Shown here piece by piece: positions 1-6,065 of a stretch of DNA of 6,065 nucleotides (positions are counted from its first letter, which is position 1; each line of letters opens with the position of its first letter). The stretch lies in the sequence record NC_007823.1. One strand, 5' to 3'. This DNA comes from Escherichia phage NC28. A model generated the notes under the pieces. That model was not told the origin of the DNA. It saw nothing but the letters and a program-made list of their open reading frames with translations, and searched no databases. Made by a program: the position numbers and the translations under genes.

Positions 1-26
1 TTGTTGACTTCTCCCAATCCCTTATG

Positions 27-59
27 AGACTCTTACTTCAACGAATGAAGTAGGAGTCT
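27..59 (+). terminator. Hairpin just downstream of gene H (H stop is at the window end, assuming a circular genome): 13-bp stem (27-39 / 47-59, one G-U pair), 7-nt loop, followed by TCTTTAT. Likely the post-H (TH-like) terminator or mRNA-stabilising hairpin.
   Basis: Read directly: 5' arm AGACTCTTACTTC (27-39), loop AACGAAT (40-46), 3' arm GAAGTAGGAGTCT (47-59). The 3' arm contains AGGAG (52-56), the SD of the ORF starting at 65. The U-tract is weak. Confidence 0.5.
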
Positions 60-64
60 TTATC

Positions 65-433
65 ATGAAGCCCGCTCACCGCTTGACTCATCCGATTCTC
101 GGTTCTTGGTTGTTTAAGTGCCCTGTTTATATCAGTTATGAGCACCTTCATCATGGTCGTCTCATTAAGGTTCGCGCTGTTCGTGATTTATCCCCTCGCC
201 AGCAGCTTATCGCTAACCCTAAAAATTGTTTTGACGTTGTTATTGCTGTGATTGACGTTACTTATTGCTCTGTCACTTATTTTGATTATGAGGCTGAGGA
301 ATATGCCGAGTGTGATTCAGAAACTATGGATAATATCCTTGCTTATGTTAACTCTCCTCACTCCCTTCGCTCTGAGGAGGATTCATCCGTTGATGTTGAC
401 GATATGGCGTGGCTTTATGAAATTGCGGAGTAA
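65..433 (+). CDS. Hypothetical acidic protein (122 aa) in the H-A intergenic region; no recognisable family.
   Basis: ATG at 65 with AGGAG (52-56) 8 nt upstream. T-rich third codon positions match the phage's other genes. C-terminal half is strongly acidic (EEDSSVDVDDMAWLYEIAE tail). Stop TAA at 431-433 lies 3 nt before the next ATG. Confidence 0.5.
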   Translation: MKPAHRLTHPILGSWLFKCPVYISYEHLHHGRLIKVRAVRDLSPRQQLIANPKNCFDVVIAVIDVTYCSVTYFDYEAEEYAECDSETMDNILAYVNSPHSLRSEEDSSVDVDDMAWLYEIAE

Positions 434-436
434 ATC

Positions 437-526
437 ATGGAAACTGTTGTCGGGAAATTTATTGCTTTGGCTGTTGTTGCTCTTATGCTGTATGGAATTG
501 CCCGTTTAATTCGGAGGTTCCCGTGA
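437..526 (+). CDS. Hypothetical small hydrophobic peptide (29 aa, METVVGKFIALAVVALMLYGIARLIRRFP): one predicted transmembrane helix with a basic C-terminus.
   Basis: ATG at 437 with GGAG (427-430) 6 nt upstream. Hand translation gives an uninterrupted hydrophobic stretch then RLIRRFP; stop TGA at 524-526. Too short to appear in the supplied ORF track. Confidence 0.38.
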   Translation: METVVGKFIALAVVALMLYGIARLIRRFP

Positions 527-699
527 AATACTTTAGTCTTGTGGATGAACATTATGCTTATTGCCCTGACACGCGGATTCTGCATATCACTCGCAGTCGT
601 GTTTCTGACCCTCGTTATGAGCGTCGTTTTCTTACTGATGAGGAGCATTTTGAGCTTCTGGATTGGTTGAAAAGCCGTCTGACTTACGTTAATTCTTGA
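523..699 (+). CDS. Hypothetical 58-aa protein with GTG start overlapping the ORF2 stop (GTGA), translation VKYFSLVDEHYAYCPDTRILHITRSRVSDPRYERRFLTDEEHFELLDWLKSRLTYVNS.
   Basis: GGAGG (513-517) lies 5 nt upstream of GTG 523. Open frame to TGA 697-699 verified codon by codon. No in-frame ATG, so the start is uncertain. Confidence 0.33.
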   Translation: MKYFSLVDEHYAYCPDTRILHITRSRVSDPRYERRFLTDEEHFELLDWLKSRLTYVNS

Positions 700-725
700 C
701 AATCTTCTGAAATACCCTCTATATT
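696..725 (+). promoter_or_regulatory. Candidate sigma70 promoter for gene A (PA-like): -35 TTGACA (696-701), -10 TATATT (720-725), 18-nt spacer.
   Basis: Perfect -35 hexamer and a 5/6 -10 read directly, positioned about 35 nt upstream of the A start codon, analogous to phiX174 PA in the H-A intergenic region. The ORF3 stop TGA sits inside the -35 hexamer. Confidence 0.45.
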
Positions 726-755
726 GCCCTCATAGGTTCACTACGAGGGCTTTTT
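726..755 (+). terminator. Terminator-like or leader hairpin: GCCCTC (726-731) / GAGGGC (745-750) stem, 13-nt loop, followed by TTTTT (751-755), immediately before the gene A ATG.
   Basis: Read directly. The 3' arm GAGGG (745-749) is also the likely SD of gene A, 9 nt before ATG 759. Could terminate transcripts coming from the upstream cassette and/or modulate A translation. Confidence 0.4.
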
Positions 756-758
756 CGC

Positions 759-2243
759 ATGGCTACCGAATTGTTTTCTGACGTTGTAAAGGCTACGTGG
801 TCGCATGTCACTGCTAAGCATCCTCATCTTCGTATGGCTGTTCAGGTTGATAACCGTAGCCGTCTTCTTTCTGATTTGGTTTACCAGTTGGAAAAACGCC
901 TTTCCGAAGAGACTCATTTGGATGATGAGACTTATGCCCTTTATGAATCTCAGACTGGCCTTTTGGAAGACCATATGGCACTGGTTCGAAAGTGTGCAGC
1001 CCAACTTGATAATAGTAACACTATAGACCACCGTACCCCGTTGGACCCTGAATGTGTTTTCCTTTTTGAAATGATTTGTCCAGGTGTTCGCTATGGTAAG
1101 GCGCTTAATTCGCTTTGGAGTAAGTATGTCGCTCAATGGCCTGAGAAGTTAATTCGTCAGGAGCTCGACATGGTTAAGCCTTTATCTTTCAAGGATGAGG
1201 TTGCCAAGTACATGGAGAAAATGCAGGAAAAAACACGTAAAAATCGCATGACTCAGAAAGTGATTAATGAGATGCGTATTGCTCACCAAAAAGGCTGGTT
1301 CTTCGTATTTGATACGTTGACACTTGCTGATGACCGTTTGCAGGCGTTTAATGAAAACCCCAATGCTCTTCGTGATTACTTCAGGACTGTTGGTCGAGCT
1401 GTTTTGCGCGCTGAAGGTCGTTCGGTTAAGGATTCCTACAACGACTGCTATCGCTATCTTTGTGTGCCGGAGTTTGGAGGCCAGCACGGCCGTCTTCATT
1501 GGCATGTCGTGCATATGGTGCGGACTCTTCCTTTGGGAAGTCACGACCCTAATTTCGGTCGCAAGGTACGTAATTATCGCCAAATTAACTCGTTCCGTGG
1601 TATGTGGCCTTATGGCTTCACGCAACCGATAGCTGTACGCTATCAACATGATGCTTATTCTCGTAAAGGTTGGTTGTGGCCTGTTGACAAAACAGGAAAA
1701 GCAATGCAGAGTAAGCCGTATCAGGCGGTCGCATGGTATGTGACCAAGTATGTAGCTAAGCAATCTGATCAGCGTCAGAAAGCTATTACCGAGAGACAAA
1801 AAAAATGCAAAAATCCTTTGATGGCAATTTGCTTGAAGAAAGAATTCAGGGTTCGCAGCAGCCGGAAGCTCGGAATGGAGTTACCTTCAATGGTTCACCT
1901 GAGCAACAAGGTCCTTCTGGAACTGAGCAGAATCAGCTTCGATTCCAGCCCGCTCTATCAGATAGTGAAAGAGAACGCCAAAAAGCAATTGAGCTTGAAC
2001 ATCGGCGTAGTGCCTTTGCACGTCATTATGGATGTGCGCCCGCAAGTGAGAAGTATGTTGAAAAATATCCGTCGTTTGATGAAAAAGACACCAGAATTCA
2101 ATTGGCAGAATTCTATCGCTTCAATGACGGTCACCTTAAAAAATGGGGATATTTCTAATGAAGCACGTCAATACATTGTTGATGCAGGAATTACGCCTTT
2201 TGATTTGCGAGCTAAAGCGACTCAAACTTTCGGCGGTAAGTGA
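759..2243 (+). CDS. A: Replication initiation protein A (rolling-circle HUH endonuclease), 494 aa.
   Basis: Long ORF with HUH motif GRLHWHVVH (His codons near 1497-1514) and double-tyrosine motif AWYVTKYVAKQSD (Tyr codons at 1737 and 1749). Central and C-terminal regions align with recalled phiX174 protein A (e.g. GWFxVFDTLTLADDRL, PNALRDYFR, DPNFGRxVRN, WPYG, GWLWPVD). Confidence 0.94.
   Translation: MATELFSDVVKATWSHVTAKHPHLRMAVQVDNRSRLLSDLVYQLEKRLSEETHLDDETYALYESQTGLLEDHMALVRKCAAQLDNSNTIDHRTPLDPECVFLFEMICPGVRYGKALNSLWSKYVAQWPEKLIRQELDMVKPLSFKDEVAKYMEKMQEKTRKNRMTQKVINEMRIAHQKGWFFVFDTLTLADDRLQAFNENPNALRDYFRTVGRAVLRAEGRSVKDSYNDCYRYLCVPEFGGQHGRLHWHVVHMVRTLPLGSHDPNFGRKVRNYRQINSFRGMWPYGFTQPIAVRYQHDAYSRKGWLWPVDKTGKAMQSKPYQAVAWYVTKYVAKQSDQRQKAITERQKKCKNPLMAICLKKEFRVRSSRKLGMELPSMVHLSNKVLLELSRISFDSSPLYQIVKENAKKQLSLNIGVVPLHVIMDVRPQVRSMLKNIRRLMKKTPEFNWQNSIASMTVTLKNGDISNEARQYIVDAGITPFDLRAKATQTFGGK
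1002..1031 (+). other. Viral (+) strand replication origin 30-mer inside gene A; predicted nick between G1008 and A1009.
   Basis: CAACTTGATAATAGTAACACTATAGACCAC matches the recalled phiX174 origin CAACTTGATATTAATAACACTATAGACCAC at 28 of 30 positions; both differences fall in the AT-rich spacer. In frame within A (translated ...QLDNSNTIDHR...). Confidence 0.8.
1212..2243 (+). CDS. A*: Protein A*: in-frame internal restart within gene A, about 343 aa.
   Basis: In-frame ATG at 1212 (MEKMQEKTRKNRMTQ...) preceded by AAGGA/GAGG (1191-1200). It sits at the position equivalent to the phiX174 A* start, about 25 residues before the conserved GWFxVFDTLTLADD. In-frame ATGs at 1221 and 1248 are alternatives. 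Confidence 0.45.
   Translation: MEKMQEKTRKNRMTQKVINEMRIAHQKGWFFVFDTLTLADDRLQAFNENPNALRDYFRTVGRAVLRAEGRSVKDSYNDCYRYLCVPEFGGQHGRLHWHVVHMVRTLPLGSHDPNFGRKVRNYRQINSFRGMWPYGFTQPIAVRYQHDAYSRKGWLWPVDKTGKAMQSKPYQAVAWYVTKYVAKQSDQRQKAITERQKKCKNPLMAICLKKEFRVRSSRKLGMELPSMVHLSNKVLLELSRISFDSSPLYQIVKENAKKQLSLNIGVVPLHVIMDVRPQVRSMLKNIRRLMKKTPEFNWQNSIASMTVTLKNGDISNEARQYIVDAGITPFDLRAKATQTFGGK
1805..2158 (+). CDS. B: Internal scaffolding protein B (117 aa), encoded in an alternative frame inside gene A.
   Basis: ORF in a different frame from A. C-terminus ...DTRIQLAEFYRFNDGHLKKWGYF matches recalled phiX174 B C-terminus (...WRIQPAEFYRFHDAEVNTFGYF). Acidic, Q-rich N-terminal region typical of B. Confidence 0.9.
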   Translation: MQKSFDGNLLEERIQGSQQPEARNGVTFNGSPEQQGPSGTEQNQLRFQPALSDSERERQKAIELEHRRSAFARHYGCAPASEKYVEKYPSFDEKDTRIQLAEFYRFNDGHLKKWGYF

Positions 2244-3057: not shown

Positions 3058-3071
3058 GGGCCTTCGGGCCC
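3058..3071 (+). terminator. J-F intergenic GC hairpin GGGCC-TTCG-GGCCC followed by TTT; terminator-like (TJ) or mRNA-stabilising stem-loop.
   Basis: Perfect 5-bp GC stem with TTCG tetraloop read directly, followed by TTTAAGGA, whose AAGGA (3075-3079) is the SD for F at 3086. Confidence 0.55.
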
Positions 3072-3085
3072 TTTAAGGAAATCCA

Positions 3086-4369
3086 ATGTCAAACGTGCAA
3101 ACTTCCGCAGAACGTATTCCGCATGACCTTTCCCATCTGGTTTTTGATGCTGGCAAGATTGGTCGTTTAAAGGTTGTTTCTTGGACTCCTGTTGTTGCAG
3201 GTGATTCTTTTGAGCTTGATATGATTGGCGCAATTCGCCTTTCTCCGCTTCGTCGTGGTTTGGCTGTTGATAGCCGCGTTGACTTGTTTACTTTCTATGT
3301 TCCTCATCGTCATGTTTATGGTGAGCAATGGATTGATTTTATGAAAGCAGGTGTTGATGCTGCTCCGCTTGCACCTGTTACTTGTTCGCGTGGTTGGGAT
3401 AGCGCCCAGTATTTGGCTACAATTCCGTCCTCTAACCTGAAGGTTCCTAAGTTCCTTCATCAAGGTTATTTGAATATTTATAATAACTATTTTAAAGCTC
3501 CGTGGATGGATGATTTAACTTATGCCAATCCGTCTAATATGGAAGGTGAAGACGTTCGTTTTGGTGTTCGTGCGTGTAACTTGAAAACTATTTGGACTGC
3601 CCCACTTCCGCCGGACACTGAGACTTCTCATTCTATGGAGACTGAGACTAACTCTATTGATATCATGGGCCTTCAGGCCGCTTATGCTCAGCTTCATACT
3701 GAGCAGGAACGTGATTATTTCATGACGCGTTATCGTGATATTGTTAATGAATTTGGTGGTAGTACTTCTTATGATGCGGATAATCGCCCTCTTCTGGTTA
3801 TGCACTCTGAGTTTTGGGCTTCAGGCTATGACGTCGACGGCACCGACCAAAGTTCTCTCGGTCAGTTCTCTGGACGTGTACAGCAGACCTTTAAGCATTC
3901 AGTACCGCGATTCTTCTGCCCTGAGCATGGCACTATGTTCACACTCGCATTGGTCCGCTTCCCGCCGACCCATGAGATGGAGATGCATTACTTAGTTGGC
4001 AAGGAAGATTTAACCTATACTGATTTGGCTTGTGACCCAGCTCTGATGGCCAACCTCCCTCCTCGTGAGGTTAATATGTCTCAGTTCTTCCATTCTGGAA
4101 GTGCTAGTGCTAAGTTTAAGATTGCTGAAGGTCAATGGTATCGTATGCAGCCTGACCGTGTTGCTTTGCCGTATAACTATCTTGATGGTTTTCCGTTCTA
4201 TAGTGCGATTCCATCTGATGATATTAATCATCGTGTTCTGGTTAATACTGATAACTACGATGAGGTTTTCCAGTCTATGCAGCTTGCGCACTGGAATATG
4301 CAGACCAAGTTTAACTGCACCATTTATCGTAATATGCCGACCACTCGCGACTCTATTATGACCTCTTGA
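3086..4369 (+). CDS. F: Major capsid protein F (427 aa).
   Basis: Same length as phiX174 F and extensive identity to the recalled sequence (MSNxQTxAERxPHDLSHL…, FTFYVPHRHVYGEQWI, GYLNIYNNYFKAPWM, WTAPLPP, SIDIMGLQAAYA, SYDADNRPLLVM, ASGYDVDGTDQxSLGQFSGRVQQT, LPTTRDSIMTS). Confidence 0.97.
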   Translation: MSNVQTSAERIPHDLSHLVFDAGKIGRLKVVSWTPVVAGDSFELDMIGAIRLSPLRRGLAVDSRVDLFTFYVPHRHVYGEQWIDFMKAGVDAAPLAPVTCSRGWDSAQYLATIPSSNLKVPKFLHQGYLNIYNNYFKAPWMDDLTYANPSNMEGEDVRFGVRACNLKTIWTAPLPPDTETSHSMETETNSIDIMGLQAAYAQLHTEQERDYFMTRYRDIVNEFGGSTSYDADNRPLLVMHSEFWASGYDVDGTDQSSLGQFSGRVQQTFKHSVPRFFCPEHGTMFTLALVRFPPTHEMEMHYLVGKEDLTYTDLACDPALMANLPPREVNMSQFFHSGSASAKFKIAEGQWYRMQPDRVALPYNYLDGFPFYSAIPSDDINHRVLVNTDNYDEVFQSMQLAHWNMQTKFNCTIYRNMPTTRDSIMTS

Positions 4370-4375
4370 TTATGT

Positions 4376-4389
4376 GGGCCTTCGGGCCC
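4376..4389 (+). terminator. F-G intergenic GC hairpin GGGCC-TTCG-GGCCC, second copy of the J-F hairpin; terminator-like (TF).
   Basis: Identical stem-loop to 3058-3071, with similar flanks (TTATG upstream, C(C)TTTAAGGA downstream); the downstream AAGGA serves as the SD for G. Confidence 0.55.
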
Positions 4390-4406: not shown

Positions 4407-4952
4407 ATGTTTCAAGTTTATGTATCTAAGCATGTTGCCCCGTTCACTTCTAAGAACCGTGCTTTTTCTATTGCTCCCGCTGCTAATCCGCAGGTTGTTA
4501 ACTCTGGTGAGATTGTTGCAGGTCGTTCTACGTTTCGTATTGCTTCTTCTATTGCTTCCGCTGTTAATGGTAGTGGTTTCGCTTTTGTTCAGATGATGGA
4601 CCCTAACTCTCCTGATTCTCAGCAGGTTTTCTCTGTTGCTGCTTCTCTGTCCTTTAGTGTTGATTCGAATTACATTCCTTGTGTTGTTCGTTTTGAGGAT
4701 AACGCTGCTCAGCCTACTGATTTTGATATTGCGACCGCTGATTTTATTCCGGTTGAGGTTTCTGCTATTTCTCCTCGTGCGCTTAGTGTTCGCGATTGTG
4801 TTACCGTTGATGTTAAGCCTCGCACTCAAGGCAATAATGTTTTTGTTGGTGTTGTTTTCTTTTCTGCTTCTGCTAATGCCGGTAATGTCACTGGTGTCGT
4901 TTCGATGGCTCAGGTTGACCATGAAGTTACAGCTTTGCAGCCGCTTAAATAA
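4407..4952 (+). CDS. G: Major spike protein G (181 aa).
   Basis: ATG 4407 (MFQVYVSKH...) with AAGGA (4394-4398) 8 nt upstream. Start MFQ and motifs CVVRFE, DCVTVDV-PRT-GNNV-VG and C-terminal LQPLK match recalled phiX174 G. The track's 4374 start is a GTG inside the hairpin; the in-frame ATG at 4398 is too close to the SD. Confidence 0.9.
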   Translation: MFQVYVSKHVAPFTSKNRAFSIAPAANPQVVNSGEIVAGRSTFRIASSIASAVNGSGFAFVQMMDPNSPDSQQVFSVAASLSFSVDSNYIPCVVRFEDNAAQPTDFDIATADFIPVEVSAISPRALSVRDCVTVDVKPRTQGNNVFVGVVFFSASANAGNVTGVVSMAQVDHEVTALQPLK

Positions 4953-5087
4953 AAGGCCACCGCACTCCTGGTTAGATGCCTGCCCAGTGTAGGGTGGACC
5001 GAGCCGTACGGAGATACCCGAGAAACTAGGAACGCGGAAGGCGTTAGCCGCCTTCCCTCCTGCTAAGCCCAAAGGAGACTTTCAGCT
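4953..5087 (+). promoter_or_regulatory. 135-nt structured G-H intergenic region; candidate terminator after G and/or complementary (-) strand origin (primase-dependent ssi). Strong hairpin at 5036-5056 (GGAAGGCG-TTAGC-CGCCTTCC); possible imperfect hairpin 4957-4997; palindrome CCGTACGG at 5004-5011.
   Basis: Hairpins read directly. The spacer is far longer than a terminator plus RBS needs, while the F-G spacer is only 37 nt. My recollection is that in G4 the (-) strand origin is in F-G and in alpha3/St-1/phiK it is in G-H. AAGGAG (5072-5077) is the SD for H. Confidence 0.35.
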
Positions 5088-6065
5088 ATGTTAGGTGCCG
5101 TTGTAGGTGGTATTGTTTCAGCCTTAGCTGGTGGAGCAGCTTCTAAGCTATTTGGTGGCAAGCCTGCCGCTCAAGCCGCCACTGAGTCCTCTGGCCTTTC
5201 TAATGGTCAAGGTGTTATTGGTATGGACCAAGATGCTGGTATTCAGTCAGCTATTCAGGGTTCGAATGTTCCAAATGGTCAGATTCCTGCCCCTACCCAG
5301 ACTGGTGGCGTTATGTCTGACGCTAAAAATATGATTAAGAATGCTGGTAAAGATTTGCTTGATGGTGTTATGACCGCTGGAAGTGACCGCATTAAGCAGG
5401 CATTGGTTGATAAATTGAGTGGTAATAATGCAAAACGACAAGGACAAGCAACCCGTGATTACTTGGCTTCGGCCTTCCCTGAGCTCAACCCGTGGGAACG
5501 TTCTGGAGCTGGTGCTTCCGGTGCCGGATTGGAATCTTCCGGTCAGGACCAACAAAAAGAGTTGATGCGTATGCAGCTGGATAACCAGAAAGATATTGCA
5601 AAGATGCAGATGGATAACAATTTGCAGATTGCTGGTATTCAGTCCGCTACATCTCGTCAGAATACTAAGGACACTGTTTATGCTCAGAATGAAATGCTTC
5701 AGTACAATCAGCGTGAGTCGCAGGCACGCGTTGAATCTATCCTCGCCAACACTAACCTTACGGATAAGCAGGCTACCCATGAAATCATGAGAATGGCTCT
5801 TACCCGTGCTCAGGAAACTGGTCAGCATTTGACTAACTCTCAGATTATGGCATTGGAGAAAAAGGTTTATGCAGAAATCGGAAAAATTAATCAAGATACT
5901 CAAAACGCTCGCTATGGTAGTTCTCAGGTTACTGCTGCGGCGAAAGATGTTACGAATATGATTACTGATGCCACCTCTGGTGCTGCTGATTGGGTTTCCC
6001 AGCAATGGAATTCCCTCTTTAAGGATGGTAAGTCTAATGGTATTCCCCTCAATACCAGAAAATAA
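5088..6065 (+). CDS. H: Minor spike / DNA pilot protein H (325 aa).
   Basis: AAGGAG (5072-5077) 10 nt before ATG 5088. Glycine-rich N-terminus (MLGAVVGGIVSALAGGAASKLFGG), then GIQSAIQGSNVPN, TRDYLAxAFPELNxWER, QKELxxMQLDNQK, IAGIQSATSRQNTKDxVYAQNEML, ENTNL, QNxRYGSS; C-terminal ...FKDGKSNGI...RK. All match recalled phiX174 H. Stop TAA is the last 3 nt of the window. Confidence 0.95.
   Translation: MLGAVVGGIVSALAGGAASKLFGGKPAAQAATESSGLSNGQGVIGMDQDAGIQSAIQGSNVPNGQIPAPTQTGGVMSDAKNMIKNAGKDLLDGVMTAGSDRIKQALVDKLSGNNAKRQGQATRDYLASAFPELNPWERSGAGASGAGLESSGQDQQKELMRMQLDNQKDIAKMQMDNNLQIAGIQSATSRQNTKDTVYAQNEMLQYNQRESQARVESILANTNLTDKQATHEIMRMALTRAQETGQHLTNSQIMALEKKVYAEIGKINQDTQNARYGSSQVTAAAKDVTNMITDATSGAADWVSQQWNSLFKDGKSNGIPLNTRK

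What the first reader, a model, noticed from the sequence alone, without database searches (positions are those of the whole stretch)
523..699. ORF3 starts at a GTG overlapping the ORF2 stop, and its own stop lies inside the PA -35 hexamer
The GTGA overlap, with GGAGG 5 nt upstream, is a typical translational-coupling junction. The ORF stays open for 58 codons and ends at TGA 697-699, inside TTGACA (696-701). The product (VKYFSLVDEHYAYCPDTRILHITRSRVSDPRYERRFLTDEEHFELLDWLKSRLTYVNS) is Arg-rich and could bind nucleic acid. This packing is hard to explain unless the region is functional.
Basis: seen in the sequence. Interest (0 to 1): 0.42.

Follow-up and report, generated by a model that had tools for sequence, protein, structure and literature searches.

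The report
Conserved small accessory gene in alpha3-like microvirus
ORF3 is a real, strongly conserved 58-codon gene packed between a tiny upstream gene and the gene A promoter of an alpha3/WA13-like coliphage; earlier work had already noted conserved reading frames in this clade, and its function is still unknown.

Summary
The window is a complete alpha3/WA13-like microvirus genome (91.7% identical to WA13), and 523-699 lies in the ~758-nt H-A spacer that phiX174 and G4 lack.

ORF3 is a genuine protein-coding gene:
- It is intact at 58 codons in about 26 relatives.
- Tree-aware counts give 116 synonymous against 48 nonsynonymous changes (p=2.5e-38). The other two frames show no signal.
- dN/dS is 0.14-0.19, like gene H. 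Codon composition matches known phage genes.
- The start codon switches from GTG to ATG in one lineage, together with a remodelled ribosome binding site, yet the start/stop junction with ORF2 is kept.

The TTGACA that holds the stop codon is the gene A promoter -35, judged by its shared layout with phiX174 and G4.

The "Arg-rich nucleic-acid binder" idea is not supported: net charge is about zero and no significant homolog or fold match exists anywhere. The predicted fold is four strands plus one helix.

Existence is not new. Old alpha3 annotation marks its ribosome binding site, phage Lilleven annotates it, and Rokyta 2006 is cited for five conserved reading frames in this clade. Function remains unknown.

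The parts
523..699 (+). ORF3 coding sequence (58 codons plus TGA), GTG start
   Evidence: Intact in relatives. Frame-specific purifying selection. Codon composition matches known genes.
513..517 (+). Shine-Dalgarno GGAGG for ORF3, 5 nt upstream of the GTG and inside the end of ORF2
   Evidence: Annotated as ribosome_binding_site in alpha3 record M25640 at 1713-1718, which corresponds to window 513-518. Lineages with an ATG start have AGGA 7-8 nt upstream instead.
523..526 (+). GTGA start/stop overlap between ORF3 (GTG) and ORF2 (TGA)
   Evidence: The variants are ATGA in NC29, L015-19, L037 and L038, and TGA-3 nt-ATG in ID32.
437..526 (+). ORF2, a 29-aa hydrophobic peptide (METVVGKFIALAVVALMLYGIARLIRRFP), upstream partner in the proposed coupling
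   Evidence: GGAG lies at 427-430. The second codon position never changes in 44 inferred substitutions. It is annotated as a CDS in Lilleven. Extra nucleotide-level constraint here remains unexplained.
65..433 (+). ORF1, a 122-aa acidic protein, first cistron of the cassette
   Evidence: 303 synonymous against 198 nonsynonymous changes, p=2e-74. dN/dS 0.18-0.19. Homologs occur only on microvirus-sized contigs.
696..725 (+). Gene A promoter PA: -35 TTGACA (696-701, containing the ORF3 stop), 18-nt spacer, -10 TATATT (720-725)
   Evidence: Promoter scan matches 11 of 12. The layout matches the phiX174 and G4 H-A spacers. TTGACA is conserved in 19 of 20 relatives.
726..755 (+). T_H-like hairpin (GCCCTC...GAGGGC) plus T5. 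The predicted PA transcription start is about A732, just after the left arm.
   Evidence: The fold and the alignment fold show 9 conserved pairs, one with a compensatory UA-to-AU change. The phiX174 transcription start, annotated at 3962, is the first base after the left arm.
27..62 (+). Hairpin directly after gene H and before the ORF1 ATG, followed by a T-run (T5-T6 in most relatives, TTTATC here). It is a likely leaky terminator that sets how much transcription reaches ORF1-3.
   Evidence: Folding energy -22 kcal/mol, z = -4.25. 13 pairs are conserved in 18 sequences.
759..2243 (+). Gene A, the downstream neighbour served by PA
   Evidence: Annotated in relatives.

Best explanation
ORF3 is a genuine, translated accessory gene. 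It is the third and last cistron of a three-gene cassette (ORF1 122 aa, ORF2 29 aa, ORF3 58 aa) that fills the long H-A spacer of alpha3/WA13-like microviruses and is absent from phiX174 and G4.

Shown here: the reading frame is under purifying selection, as strong as for gene H, in every available relative. The initiation codon is codon 523. The gene runs right up to the gene A promoter and stops inside it.

Inferred:
(1) Transcription comes from late transcripts that read through the leaky hairpin after gene H and end at the T_H-like hairpin downstream of PA. Expression would therefore be low.
(2) Translation starts at GTG 523 on the GGAGG Shine-Dalgarno. It is helped by ribosomes terminating at the overlapping ORF2 stop (coupling or re-initiation).
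(3) The product is a small soluble four-strand-plus-helix domain with an Arg/aromatic-rich sheet and an acidic amphipathic C-terminal helix. It most likely acts as a low-abundance binding protein, possibly a dimer, for a host or phage partner, either protein or nucleic acid.
(4) The function is accessory, meaning host- or competition-related, and not part of core replication or assembly.

My estimates: coding gene 0.95; start at 523, 0.9; some contribution from coupling 0.6; nucleic-acid binding 0.2-0.25.
For: Conservation:
- ORF3 is intact at 58 aa in 13 GenBank relatives and in metagenomic genomes.
- 9 protein clusters, about 143 member sequences, all come from ~6.1-kb contigs.

Selection:
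- Pairwise dN/dS is 0.079 in frame, against 1.0 and 1.9 in the shifted frames.
- Tree-aware parsimony gives 116 synonymous and 48 nonsynonymous changes. The synonymous fraction is 0.71 against 0.23 expected (p=2.5e-38). Changes by codon position are 36/17/111.
- In the same genomes, dN/dS is 0.19 for ORF3, 0.14 for H, 0.06 for A and 0.18 for ORF1. ORF3 dS (0.35-0.43) matches A and H, so no second constraint hides under it.

Composition: T at third position 0.59 and A 0.05, like genes A, D, F, G and H. A codon model favours frame 0 by 31.5 and 27.8 nats.

Start and junction:
- The start codon changes from GTG to ATG together with a change of Shine-Dalgarno from GGAGG to AGGA.
- The junction is always overlapping or at most 3 nt apart.
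- The start region is unstructured.

Promoter and terminator identity come from the shared layout with phiX174 (annotated transcription start) and G4 and from the conserved hairpins. phiX174 terminators are leaky: T_J, T_F and T_G block 20-40% and T_H about 70% (bioRxiv 10.1101/2020.03.05.979765).

Structure: the AlphaFold2 model has pLDDT 80 with strands 2-6, 9-14, 19-24, 31-36 and helix 39-51.

Against: - No expression data (RNA, ribosome profiling or peptides) were available for any alpha3-like phage.
- No consensus promoter lies upstream of ORF1. The hairpin at 27-59 may block most transcription.
- Coupling is unproven. ORF3 has a strong Shine-Dalgarno of its own. In the ORF2 stretch, selection cannot be assigned cleanly to one frame.
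- Function has no homology support. Pfam, PHROGs, NCBIfam, PADLOC, PDB sequences, 5.8 billion clustered proteins and an exhaustive HMMER scan of 1.84 billion representatives give only the protein's own clade.
- The structural model rests on a shallow alignment of 10 near-identical sequences.
- Three relatives alter the C-terminus or the junction (phiK, L021, L022), so the last ~8 residues and the exact stop are dispensable.
Confidence: 0.82

Rival explanations
1. ORF3 is translated independently from its own strong GGAGG Shine-Dalgarno. The GTGA overlap is only genome compaction, and termination of ORF2 contributes nothing. ORF2 may not even be translated.
For: GGAGG sits at an ideal 5-nt spacing, and the start region is unstructured. 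In the ORF2 stretch the substitution pattern is ambiguous between two frames, and dS is unusually low, so translation of ORF2 is not cleanly shown.
Against: All three junction variants keep the ORF2 stop within 4 nt of the ORF3 start across a 3-nt indel and several substitutions. ORF2 keeps its ATG, its GGAG and a length of 28-30 codons everywhere. Its second codon positions never change.
Confidence: 0.3
2. The conservation reflects a cis-acting DNA or RNA element in the H-A spacer, such as a replication, packaging or 'reduction' sequence, or promoter-upstream DNA. The open frame is then incidental.
For: In phiX174 the H-A region is part of the plasmid-borne 'reduction sequence' that inhibits infection (PMC8310164). 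ORFs of this length are common by chance in this T-rich genome.
Against: Substitutions concentrate at third codon positions (111 of 164). 71% are synonymous against 23% expected. Synonymous divergence is as high as in genes A and H. The frame, length and start are kept across indels at the junction. The fold z-score of the start region is unremarkable.
Confidence: 0.03
3. The functional product is the overlapping +1 frame ORF (539-670, a 43-aa hydrophobic peptide open in all relatives), either instead of ORF3 or in addition to it.
For: This frame is open in every relative examined. Rokyta 2006 is cited for five conserved reading frames, which is more than the three non-overlapping ones.
Against: dN/dS in that frame is about 1.0, with 36 synonymous against 128 nonsynonymous changes, which is no better than random. 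Its start codon varies between TTG and ATG at different positions. ORF3 synonymous sites are not slowed. Leu/Phe-rich open frames are an expected by-product of T-rich third positions.
Confidence: 0.03
4. ORF2 and ORF3 are made, at least partly, as one membrane-anchored fusion protein, by frameshifting or, in some strains, by deletion.
For: One metagenomic contig (L022) carries an in-frame ORF2-ORF3 fusion of 78 aa.
Against: That contig is 761 nt at about 2x coverage and may be an artefact. No slippery heptamer is visible at 505-526. All other genomes keep separate frames with a start codon at 523.
Confidence: 0.03

Closest known systems
[quoted passage not shown] 2006, as cited in PMC2935103). 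Also Lilleven hypothetical protein QBZ71504.1.
   Same: Same clade and same genome position. The length is identical (58 aa) and identity is 83-90%. ORF3 is almost certainly one of these frames.
   Different: The window carries a new allele with two private substitutions (A44E, P53L), in a genome only 91.7% identical to WA13. I could not read the 2006 paper to confirm which five frames it lists.
phiX174 and G4 pA-T_H element (promoter, hairpin terminator and gene A start)
   Same: All share a -35 TTGAC(A/T), a 17-18 nt spacer, a -10, a GC hairpin whose right arm carries the gene A Shine-Dalgarno, a T-run and then ATG. The predicted transcription start lies just after the left arm, as at the annotated phiX174 start 3962.
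   Different: In phiX174 and G4 the element follows the gene H stop within 3-12 nt. Here a 58-codon gene ends inside the -35. A second, degenerate copy of the element (window 1-64) sits after gene H and in front of ORF1.
Overlapping start/stop (ATGA or GTGA) translationally coupled gene pairs, as in other microvirus gene junctions
   Same: A 4-nt overlap with the Shine-Dalgarno inside the upstream cistron, conserved across the clade.
   Different: Dependence on upstream translation is untested. One relative (ID32) has a non-overlapping TGA-AAA-ATG junction.
Four-strand-plus-helix nucleic-acid binders of the PUR/Whirly type (Pur-alpha 3k44 and 5fgo, MRP1/2 2gia, WHY1 4koo, p22 3jv1)
   Same: The predicted order of secondary structure is the same, and these proteins recur among the weak fold hits.
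Pfam HA (helicase-associated) domain PF03457
   Same: The ORF3 C-terminal helix TDEEHFALLDWLKNR resembles the repeated ADEEE.RLAKWL.NQ helix of a helicase. HMMER gives E 6.7e-6, summed over five repeats, and hhalign gives 62% probability over 25 columns.
   Different: Only one helix of the HA domain is matched. ORF3 gives no Pfam hit at E<=1, and the rest of ORF3 is beta-strand.

Membership tests
Bona fide protein-coding gene | Reading frame kept open, at the same length, across diverged relatives | tested here: met
   58 codons in about 23 of 26 distinct genomes. The exceptions change only the C-terminal tail or the junction: phiK has 70 aa, L021 has 56 aa, and L022 is a fusion.
Bona fide protein-coding gene | Excess of synonymous over nonsynonymous change in that frame only | tested here: met
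   116 synonymous against 48 nonsynonymous changes, p=2.5e-38. Frames +1 and +2 are not significant. dN/dS is 0.08-0.19.
Bona fide protein-coding gene | Start codon with a ribosome binding site, conserved or compensated | tested here: met
   Either GTG with GGAGG (5 nt) or ATG with AGGA (7-8 nt), at the same codon.
Bona fide protein-coding gene | Direct evidence of translation (ribosome profiling, peptides) | not testable with these tools
   No such data for alpha3-like phages were found in the paper library.
Translationally coupled overlapping gene pair | Stop of the upstream cistron overlaps or abuts the start of the downstream cistron, conserved | tested here: met
   GTGA, ATGA, or TGA-3 nt-ATG in all relatives.
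Translationally coupled overlapping gene pair | The upstream cistron is itself translated | tested here: inconclusive
   The ORF2 ATG, GGAG and length are conserved, and the second codon position is invariant. However, the +1 frame looks equally constrained and dS is only 0.105.
Translationally coupled overlapping gene pair | Downstream translation depends on upstream translation | not testable with these tools
   Needs reporter fusions with ORF2 start or stop mutants.
Microvirus pA-T_H element | -35 and -10 hexamers with 17-18 nt spacing immediately upstream of gene A | tested here: met
   TTGACA-18-TATATT matches 11 of 12. The layout is the same as in phiX174 and G4.
Microvirus pA-T_H element | Hairpin plus T-run between the -10 and the gene A ATG, conserved as a structure | tested here: met
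   9 pairs are kept in 18 sequences, with one compensatory pair. The strict terminator scan misses it because of the 13-nt nominal loop.
Microvirus pA-T_H element | Transcription starts inside the hairpin, so pA transcripts escape termination | not testable with these tools
   Inferred only, from the phiX174 annotated transcription start at 3962.
Rokyta 2006 conserved reading frames of alpha3/WA13-like phages | Present in alpha3- and WA13-like genomes, absent from phiX174- and G4-like genomes | tested here: met
   tblastn finds ORF3 in all 25 alpha3-type records and nowhere else. G4-like records match only the D-F region. The H-A spacer is 63 nt in phiX174 and 58 nt in G4.
Rokyta 2006 conserved reading frames of alpha3/WA13-like phages | ORF3 is explicitly one of the five listed frames | not testable with these tools
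   The paper (PMC1347346) is not held. Only the secondary statement in PMC2935103 was read.
PUR/Whirly-like nucleic-acid-binding fold | Four-stranded antiparallel sheet followed by one helix | tested here: met
   Predicted strands 2-6, 9-14, 19-24, 31-36 and helix 39-51, pLDDT 80. This is a prediction only.
PUR/Whirly-like nucleic-acid-binding fold | Significant structural or sequence similarity to family members | tested here: not met
Pfam HA domain (PF03457) | Match to the family profile over the three-helix domain | tested here: not met
   No Pfam hit at E<=1. hhalign gives 62% over one helix only.
Small basic DNA-binding protein (such as microvirus J) | Strong net positive charge | tested here: not met
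   K+R = 9, D+E = 9-10, pI 6.25-6.8.

The most novel reading that the evidence does not exclude
ORF3 founds a new, clade-restricted family of small four-strand-plus-helix proteins. It would act, with the ORF2 membrane peptide and the acidic ORF1 protein, as a previously uncharacterised accessory module of ssDNA phages. One possibility is a dimeric ssDNA- or RNA-binding factor that tunes the adjacent pA-T_H element or gene A expression. Another is a host-takeover, anti-defence or superinfection-exclusion function that explains why alpha3-like phages carry about 700 nt that phiX174 and G4 do without.
Probability: 0.12. Interest if true: 0.55.

Novelty: already known. Interest (0 to 1): 0.3.

Why it matters
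Microviruses are the textbook example of a fully annotated minimal genome. Even so, 23 of the 24 full-length alpha3-type records in the phage collection leave this clearly selected gene unannotated, and no function has been assigned to it or its two neighbours. Confirming that ORF3 is under selection as strong as gene H gives three things:
- a firm case for adding it to RefSeq annotation;
- a compact, testable three-gene accessory cassette in a tractable phage system;
- a natural example of a gene whose stop codon is built into the -35 of the next promoter.

It does not change current understanding of microvirus biology.

Tried and rejected
- Homology for ORF3 found nothing beyond its own clade. 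I tried Pfam, PHROGs, NCBIfam and PADLOC, PDB sequences (best E 0.019 to a kinase fragment, treated as noise), 5.8 billion clustered proteins, an exhaustive profile HMMER search of 1.84 billion representatives, tblastn on phages and plasmids and representative bacterial and archaeal genomes.
- ORF1 and ORF3 as paralogs was suggested by eye (RLIKVRAVRDLSPR against RILHITRSRVSDPR). It is rejected: BLASTP E 0.1, hhalign probability 0.6%.
- The HA-domain relation rests on one helix only, at 62% hhalign probability. I kept it as a weak lead, not as membership.
- Weak tblastn hits to Vibrio filamentous phage ORFs (E 4-6) were dismissed as chance.
- A promoter for the cassette was not found. No consensus sigma-70 site lies in 4900-6065 or 1-695 on the + strand. 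The TTGAC(T/A) at 4-9 has no acceptable -10.
- The original Rokyta 2006 and 2009 papers could not be read.

Full report
WHAT THE WINDOW IS. The 6065-nt window is a complete microvirus genome with the canonical gene order: A (759-2243), B, K, C, D (2519-2977), E, J, F (3086-4369), G and H (5088-6065). Over its full length it is 91.7% identical to coliphage WA13 and 83-85% identical to alpha3, phiK and St-1. G4-like phages match only the D-F region. The finding lies in positions 1-758, the spacer between genes H and A. In phiX174 this spacer is 63 nt and in G4 it is 58 nt. In alpha3/WA13-like phages it is about 760 nt.

THE OBSERVATION. Every coordinate is right. GGAGG is at 513-517, followed by a 5-nt spacer. 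GTG is at 523 and overlaps the ORF2 stop at 524-526. The frame is open for 58 codons and ends at TGA 697-699, inside TTGACA 696-701. The promoter scan finds TTGACA-18-TATATT at 696-725, matching 11 of 12 positions, and it is the only strong site in 1-900. Two caveats apply. ORF length is not evidence here, because the window has 32 ORFs of at least 58 aa on both strands. And a TGA within TTGACA is in frame for one reading frame in three.

IS ORF3 A GENE? Yes. I compared 13 GenBank relatives with metagenomic genomes recovered through the protein and through DNA-level scans, which would also find broken copies.
- ORF3 is 58 codons in all of them, with three exceptions. phiK has TTGGCA in place of TTGACA and reads on to 70 aa. 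L021 has a frameshift in an A-run eight codons from the end. L022 is a 761-nt contig at about 2x coverage with an in-frame ORF2-ORF3 fusion.
- Pairwise Nei-Gojobori dN/dS is 0.079 in the ORF3 frame, against 1.01 and 1.89 in the shifted frames.
- On a neighbour-joining tree of 20 sequences, parsimony gives 116 synonymous and 48 nonsynonymous changes. The synonymous fraction is 0.71 against 0.23 expected (binomial p=2.5e-38), and changes by codon position are 36/17/111. The other two frames show no excess.
- In the seven genomes for which I also had flanking genes, dN/dS is 0.19 for ORF3, 0.14 for the 3' part of H, 0.06 for A and 0.18 for ORF1. ORF3 dS (0.35) is close to that of A (0.42), so nothing else slows its synonymous sites.
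- Composition agrees. T at the third position is 0.59 and A is 0.05, as in the known genes. A codon model trained on A, D, F, G and H favours frame 0 by 31.5 and 27.8 nats.
- The overlapping +1 frame (539-670), open in all relatives, evolves neutrally in its own frame. It is the expected Leu/Phe-rich by-product of T-rich third positions.

START, JUNCTION AND STOP. In ID32, NC29, L015-L019, L037 and L038, the GTG is replaced by ATG at the same codon. The upstream GGAGG (5 nt) is replaced by AGGA (7-8 nt) through a 3-nt indel plus substitutions. The junction becomes ATGA, or in ID32 TGA-AAA-ATG. A weaker Shine-Dalgarno pairs with the stronger start codon, and proximity to the ORF2 stop is always kept. 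The N-terminal residues KYFSLVDEHY are conserved through synonymous changes, so translation must begin at or before codon 523. The start region is unstructured (z +1.0). This fits translational coupling but does not prove it. ORF3 has a good Shine-Dalgarno of its own, and evidence for ORF2 translation is mixed. ORF2 keeps its ATG, its GGAG and a length of 28-30 codons, and its second codon positions never change in 44 substitutions. However, the +1 frame reads as equally conserved there. The stretch is the most conserved DNA of the spacer (diversity 0.06-0.09, dS 0.105).

THE PROMOTER THAT HOLDS THE STOP. phiX174, G4 and window 696-758 share one layout: -35 TTGAC(A/T), a 17-18 nt spacer, a -10, a GC hairpin, a T-run and the gene A ATG. 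The phiX174 record places the transcription start at 3962, the first base after the left arm of the hairpin. By analogy the start here is about A732. Transcripts from pA would then lack the left arm and escape the terminator, while read-through transcripts from upstream would form it. The hairpin is conserved in 18 sequences, with one compensatory UA-to-AU pair. TTGACA is kept in 19 of 20 relatives.

HOW ORF3 WOULD BE TRANSCRIBED. No consensus promoter lies in gene H or upstream of ORF1. Directly after the gene H stop is a second, degenerate copy of the pA-T_H layout. It has TTGACT at 4-9 (TTGACA in most relatives) and a 17-nt spacer resembling the phiX174 spacer. A stable conserved hairpin follows at 27-59 (-22 kcal/mol, z -4.25), then a T-run (T5-T6 in most relatives) and the ORF1 ATG. 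The ORF1 GGAG sits in the right arm of that hairpin. phiX174 terminators are leaky (20-40% for T_J, T_F and T_G, about 70% for T_H). The simplest inference is therefore that ORF1-3 are expressed at a low level from late transcripts that read through this hairpin and end at 726-755. A weak promoter firing into the first hairpin cannot be excluded.

WHAT THE PROTEIN IS. ORF3 is an orphan gene of this clade. Homologs were found only on ~6.1-kb microvirus contigs, at 79-90% identity. Nothing more distant turned up in any other search:
- an exhaustive profile search of 1.84 billion representatives;
- Pfam, PHROGs, NCBIfam, PADLOC and PDB sequences;
- phage and plasmid DNA by tblastn;
- representative prokaryotic genomes.

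MOST LIKELY MECHANISM. ORF3 is the last cistron of a low-expression accessory cassette. It is translated from GTG 523 with help from ribosomes finishing ORF2. It yields a small binding domain that acts on a host or phage partner. phiX174 and G4 complete the life cycle without it, so its role is accessory, related to the host or to competition. The coding, start and promoter statements are shown or strongly supported. Transcription route, coupling and biochemical role are inferences.

NOVELTY. Existence is already on record. Alpha3 record M25640 marks ribosome binding sites at the positions of the Shine-Dalgarno sequences of ORF1, ORF2 and ORF3. Phage Lilleven annotates all three as hypothetical proteins. 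Wichman and Brown 2010 cite Rokyta et al. [quoted passage not shown] I could not read the 2006 paper itself. This analysis adds a quantitative case that ORF3 is selected like a structural gene, the GTG/ATG and Shine-Dalgarno co-variation at the junction, and the negative result on homology. Most database records still omit the gene.

Noticed in passing
window 1-64: A second, degenerate copy of the pA-T_H layout sits directly after the gene H stop. It has TTGACT at 4-9 (TTGACA in most relatives), a 17-nt spacer resembling the phiX174 spacer, a conserved 13-14 bp hairpin at 27-59, a T-run and then the ORF1 ATG at 65. The ORF1 GGAG lies in the right arm. No acceptable -10 is present. This suggests the cassette arose by insertion into, or duplication of, the ancestral H-A element.
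   Followed up: partly
window 421-510 (ORF2 stretch): This is the most conserved DNA of the whole spacer (diversity 0.06-0.09; dS 0.105 against 0.35-0.58 elsewhere). ORF2 and the +1 frame (W[KR]LLSENLLLWLLLLLCCME[FL]P[VA]*, stop near 509, start not conserved) both read as conserved. Dual coding or an RNA or DNA element could not be told apart.
   Followed up: partly
window 301-390 (middle of ORF1): ORF1 has a hypervariable segment (pairwise diversity up to 0.44) between an almost invariant N-terminal half and a conserved acidic C-terminal tail (..VDVDDMxWLYEIAE). It occurs as a few discrete allelic types among relatives, which looks like modular exchange or diversifying selection.
   Followed up: no
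L014 (phage NC35), equivalent to window 703-731: NC35 carries a 29-nt deletion that removes the pA -10 (TATATT) and the left arm of the T_H-like hairpin but keeps TTGACA and the ORF3 stop. Gene A in this phage must be expressed differently, for example by read-through now that the terminator is disabled.
   Followed up: no
L008 (phage phiK), equivalent to window 696-701: phiK reads TTGGCA instead of TTGACA. This weakens the -35, removes the ORF3 stop and extends ORF3 to 70 aa. It could be real or an error in the 1990s sequence.
   Followed up: no
L022 (ENA contig NODE_196078, 761 nt, coverage ~2.2): A short deletion fuses ORF2 and ORF3 in frame into a 78-aa product, with the membrane peptide joined to the ORF3 domain. 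It may be an assembly artefact.
   Followed up: no
L021 / L040 (NFYT01000619.1, from E. coli assembly GCA_002120565.1): An alpha3-like phage contig sits inside a bacterial genome assembly. A frameshift in an A-run changes the last eight ORF3 residues and ends the frame at a TAA before the promoter.
   Followed up: no
P0026, P0027 (ORF1 homologs on 6.2-6.3 kb contigs): Some larger relatives encode a 154-aa ORF1 with a 34-residue N-terminal extension (MKPLTSSEI...).
   Followed up: no
window 3058-3071 and 4376-4389: Near-identical GC hairpins (GGGCCTTCGGGCCC followed by TTTAAGGA) sit after gene J and after gene F. They are presumably the T_J and T_F terminators and form a repeated module.
   Followed up: no
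window 4953-5087 (G-H spacer): A 135-nt GC-rich, hairpin-prone spacer. From general knowledge of alpha3, St-1 and phiK, this is where the primase-dependent complementary-strand origin lies. Not tested here.
   Followed up: no
window 652-654 and 679-681 (ORF3 codons 44 and 53): The window's ORF3 has two substitutions not seen in any relative: A44E in the helix and P53L in the tail. The genome as a whole is only 91.7% identical to its nearest record, WA13, so it is probably a distinct lineage within Alphatrevirus.
   Followed up: partly
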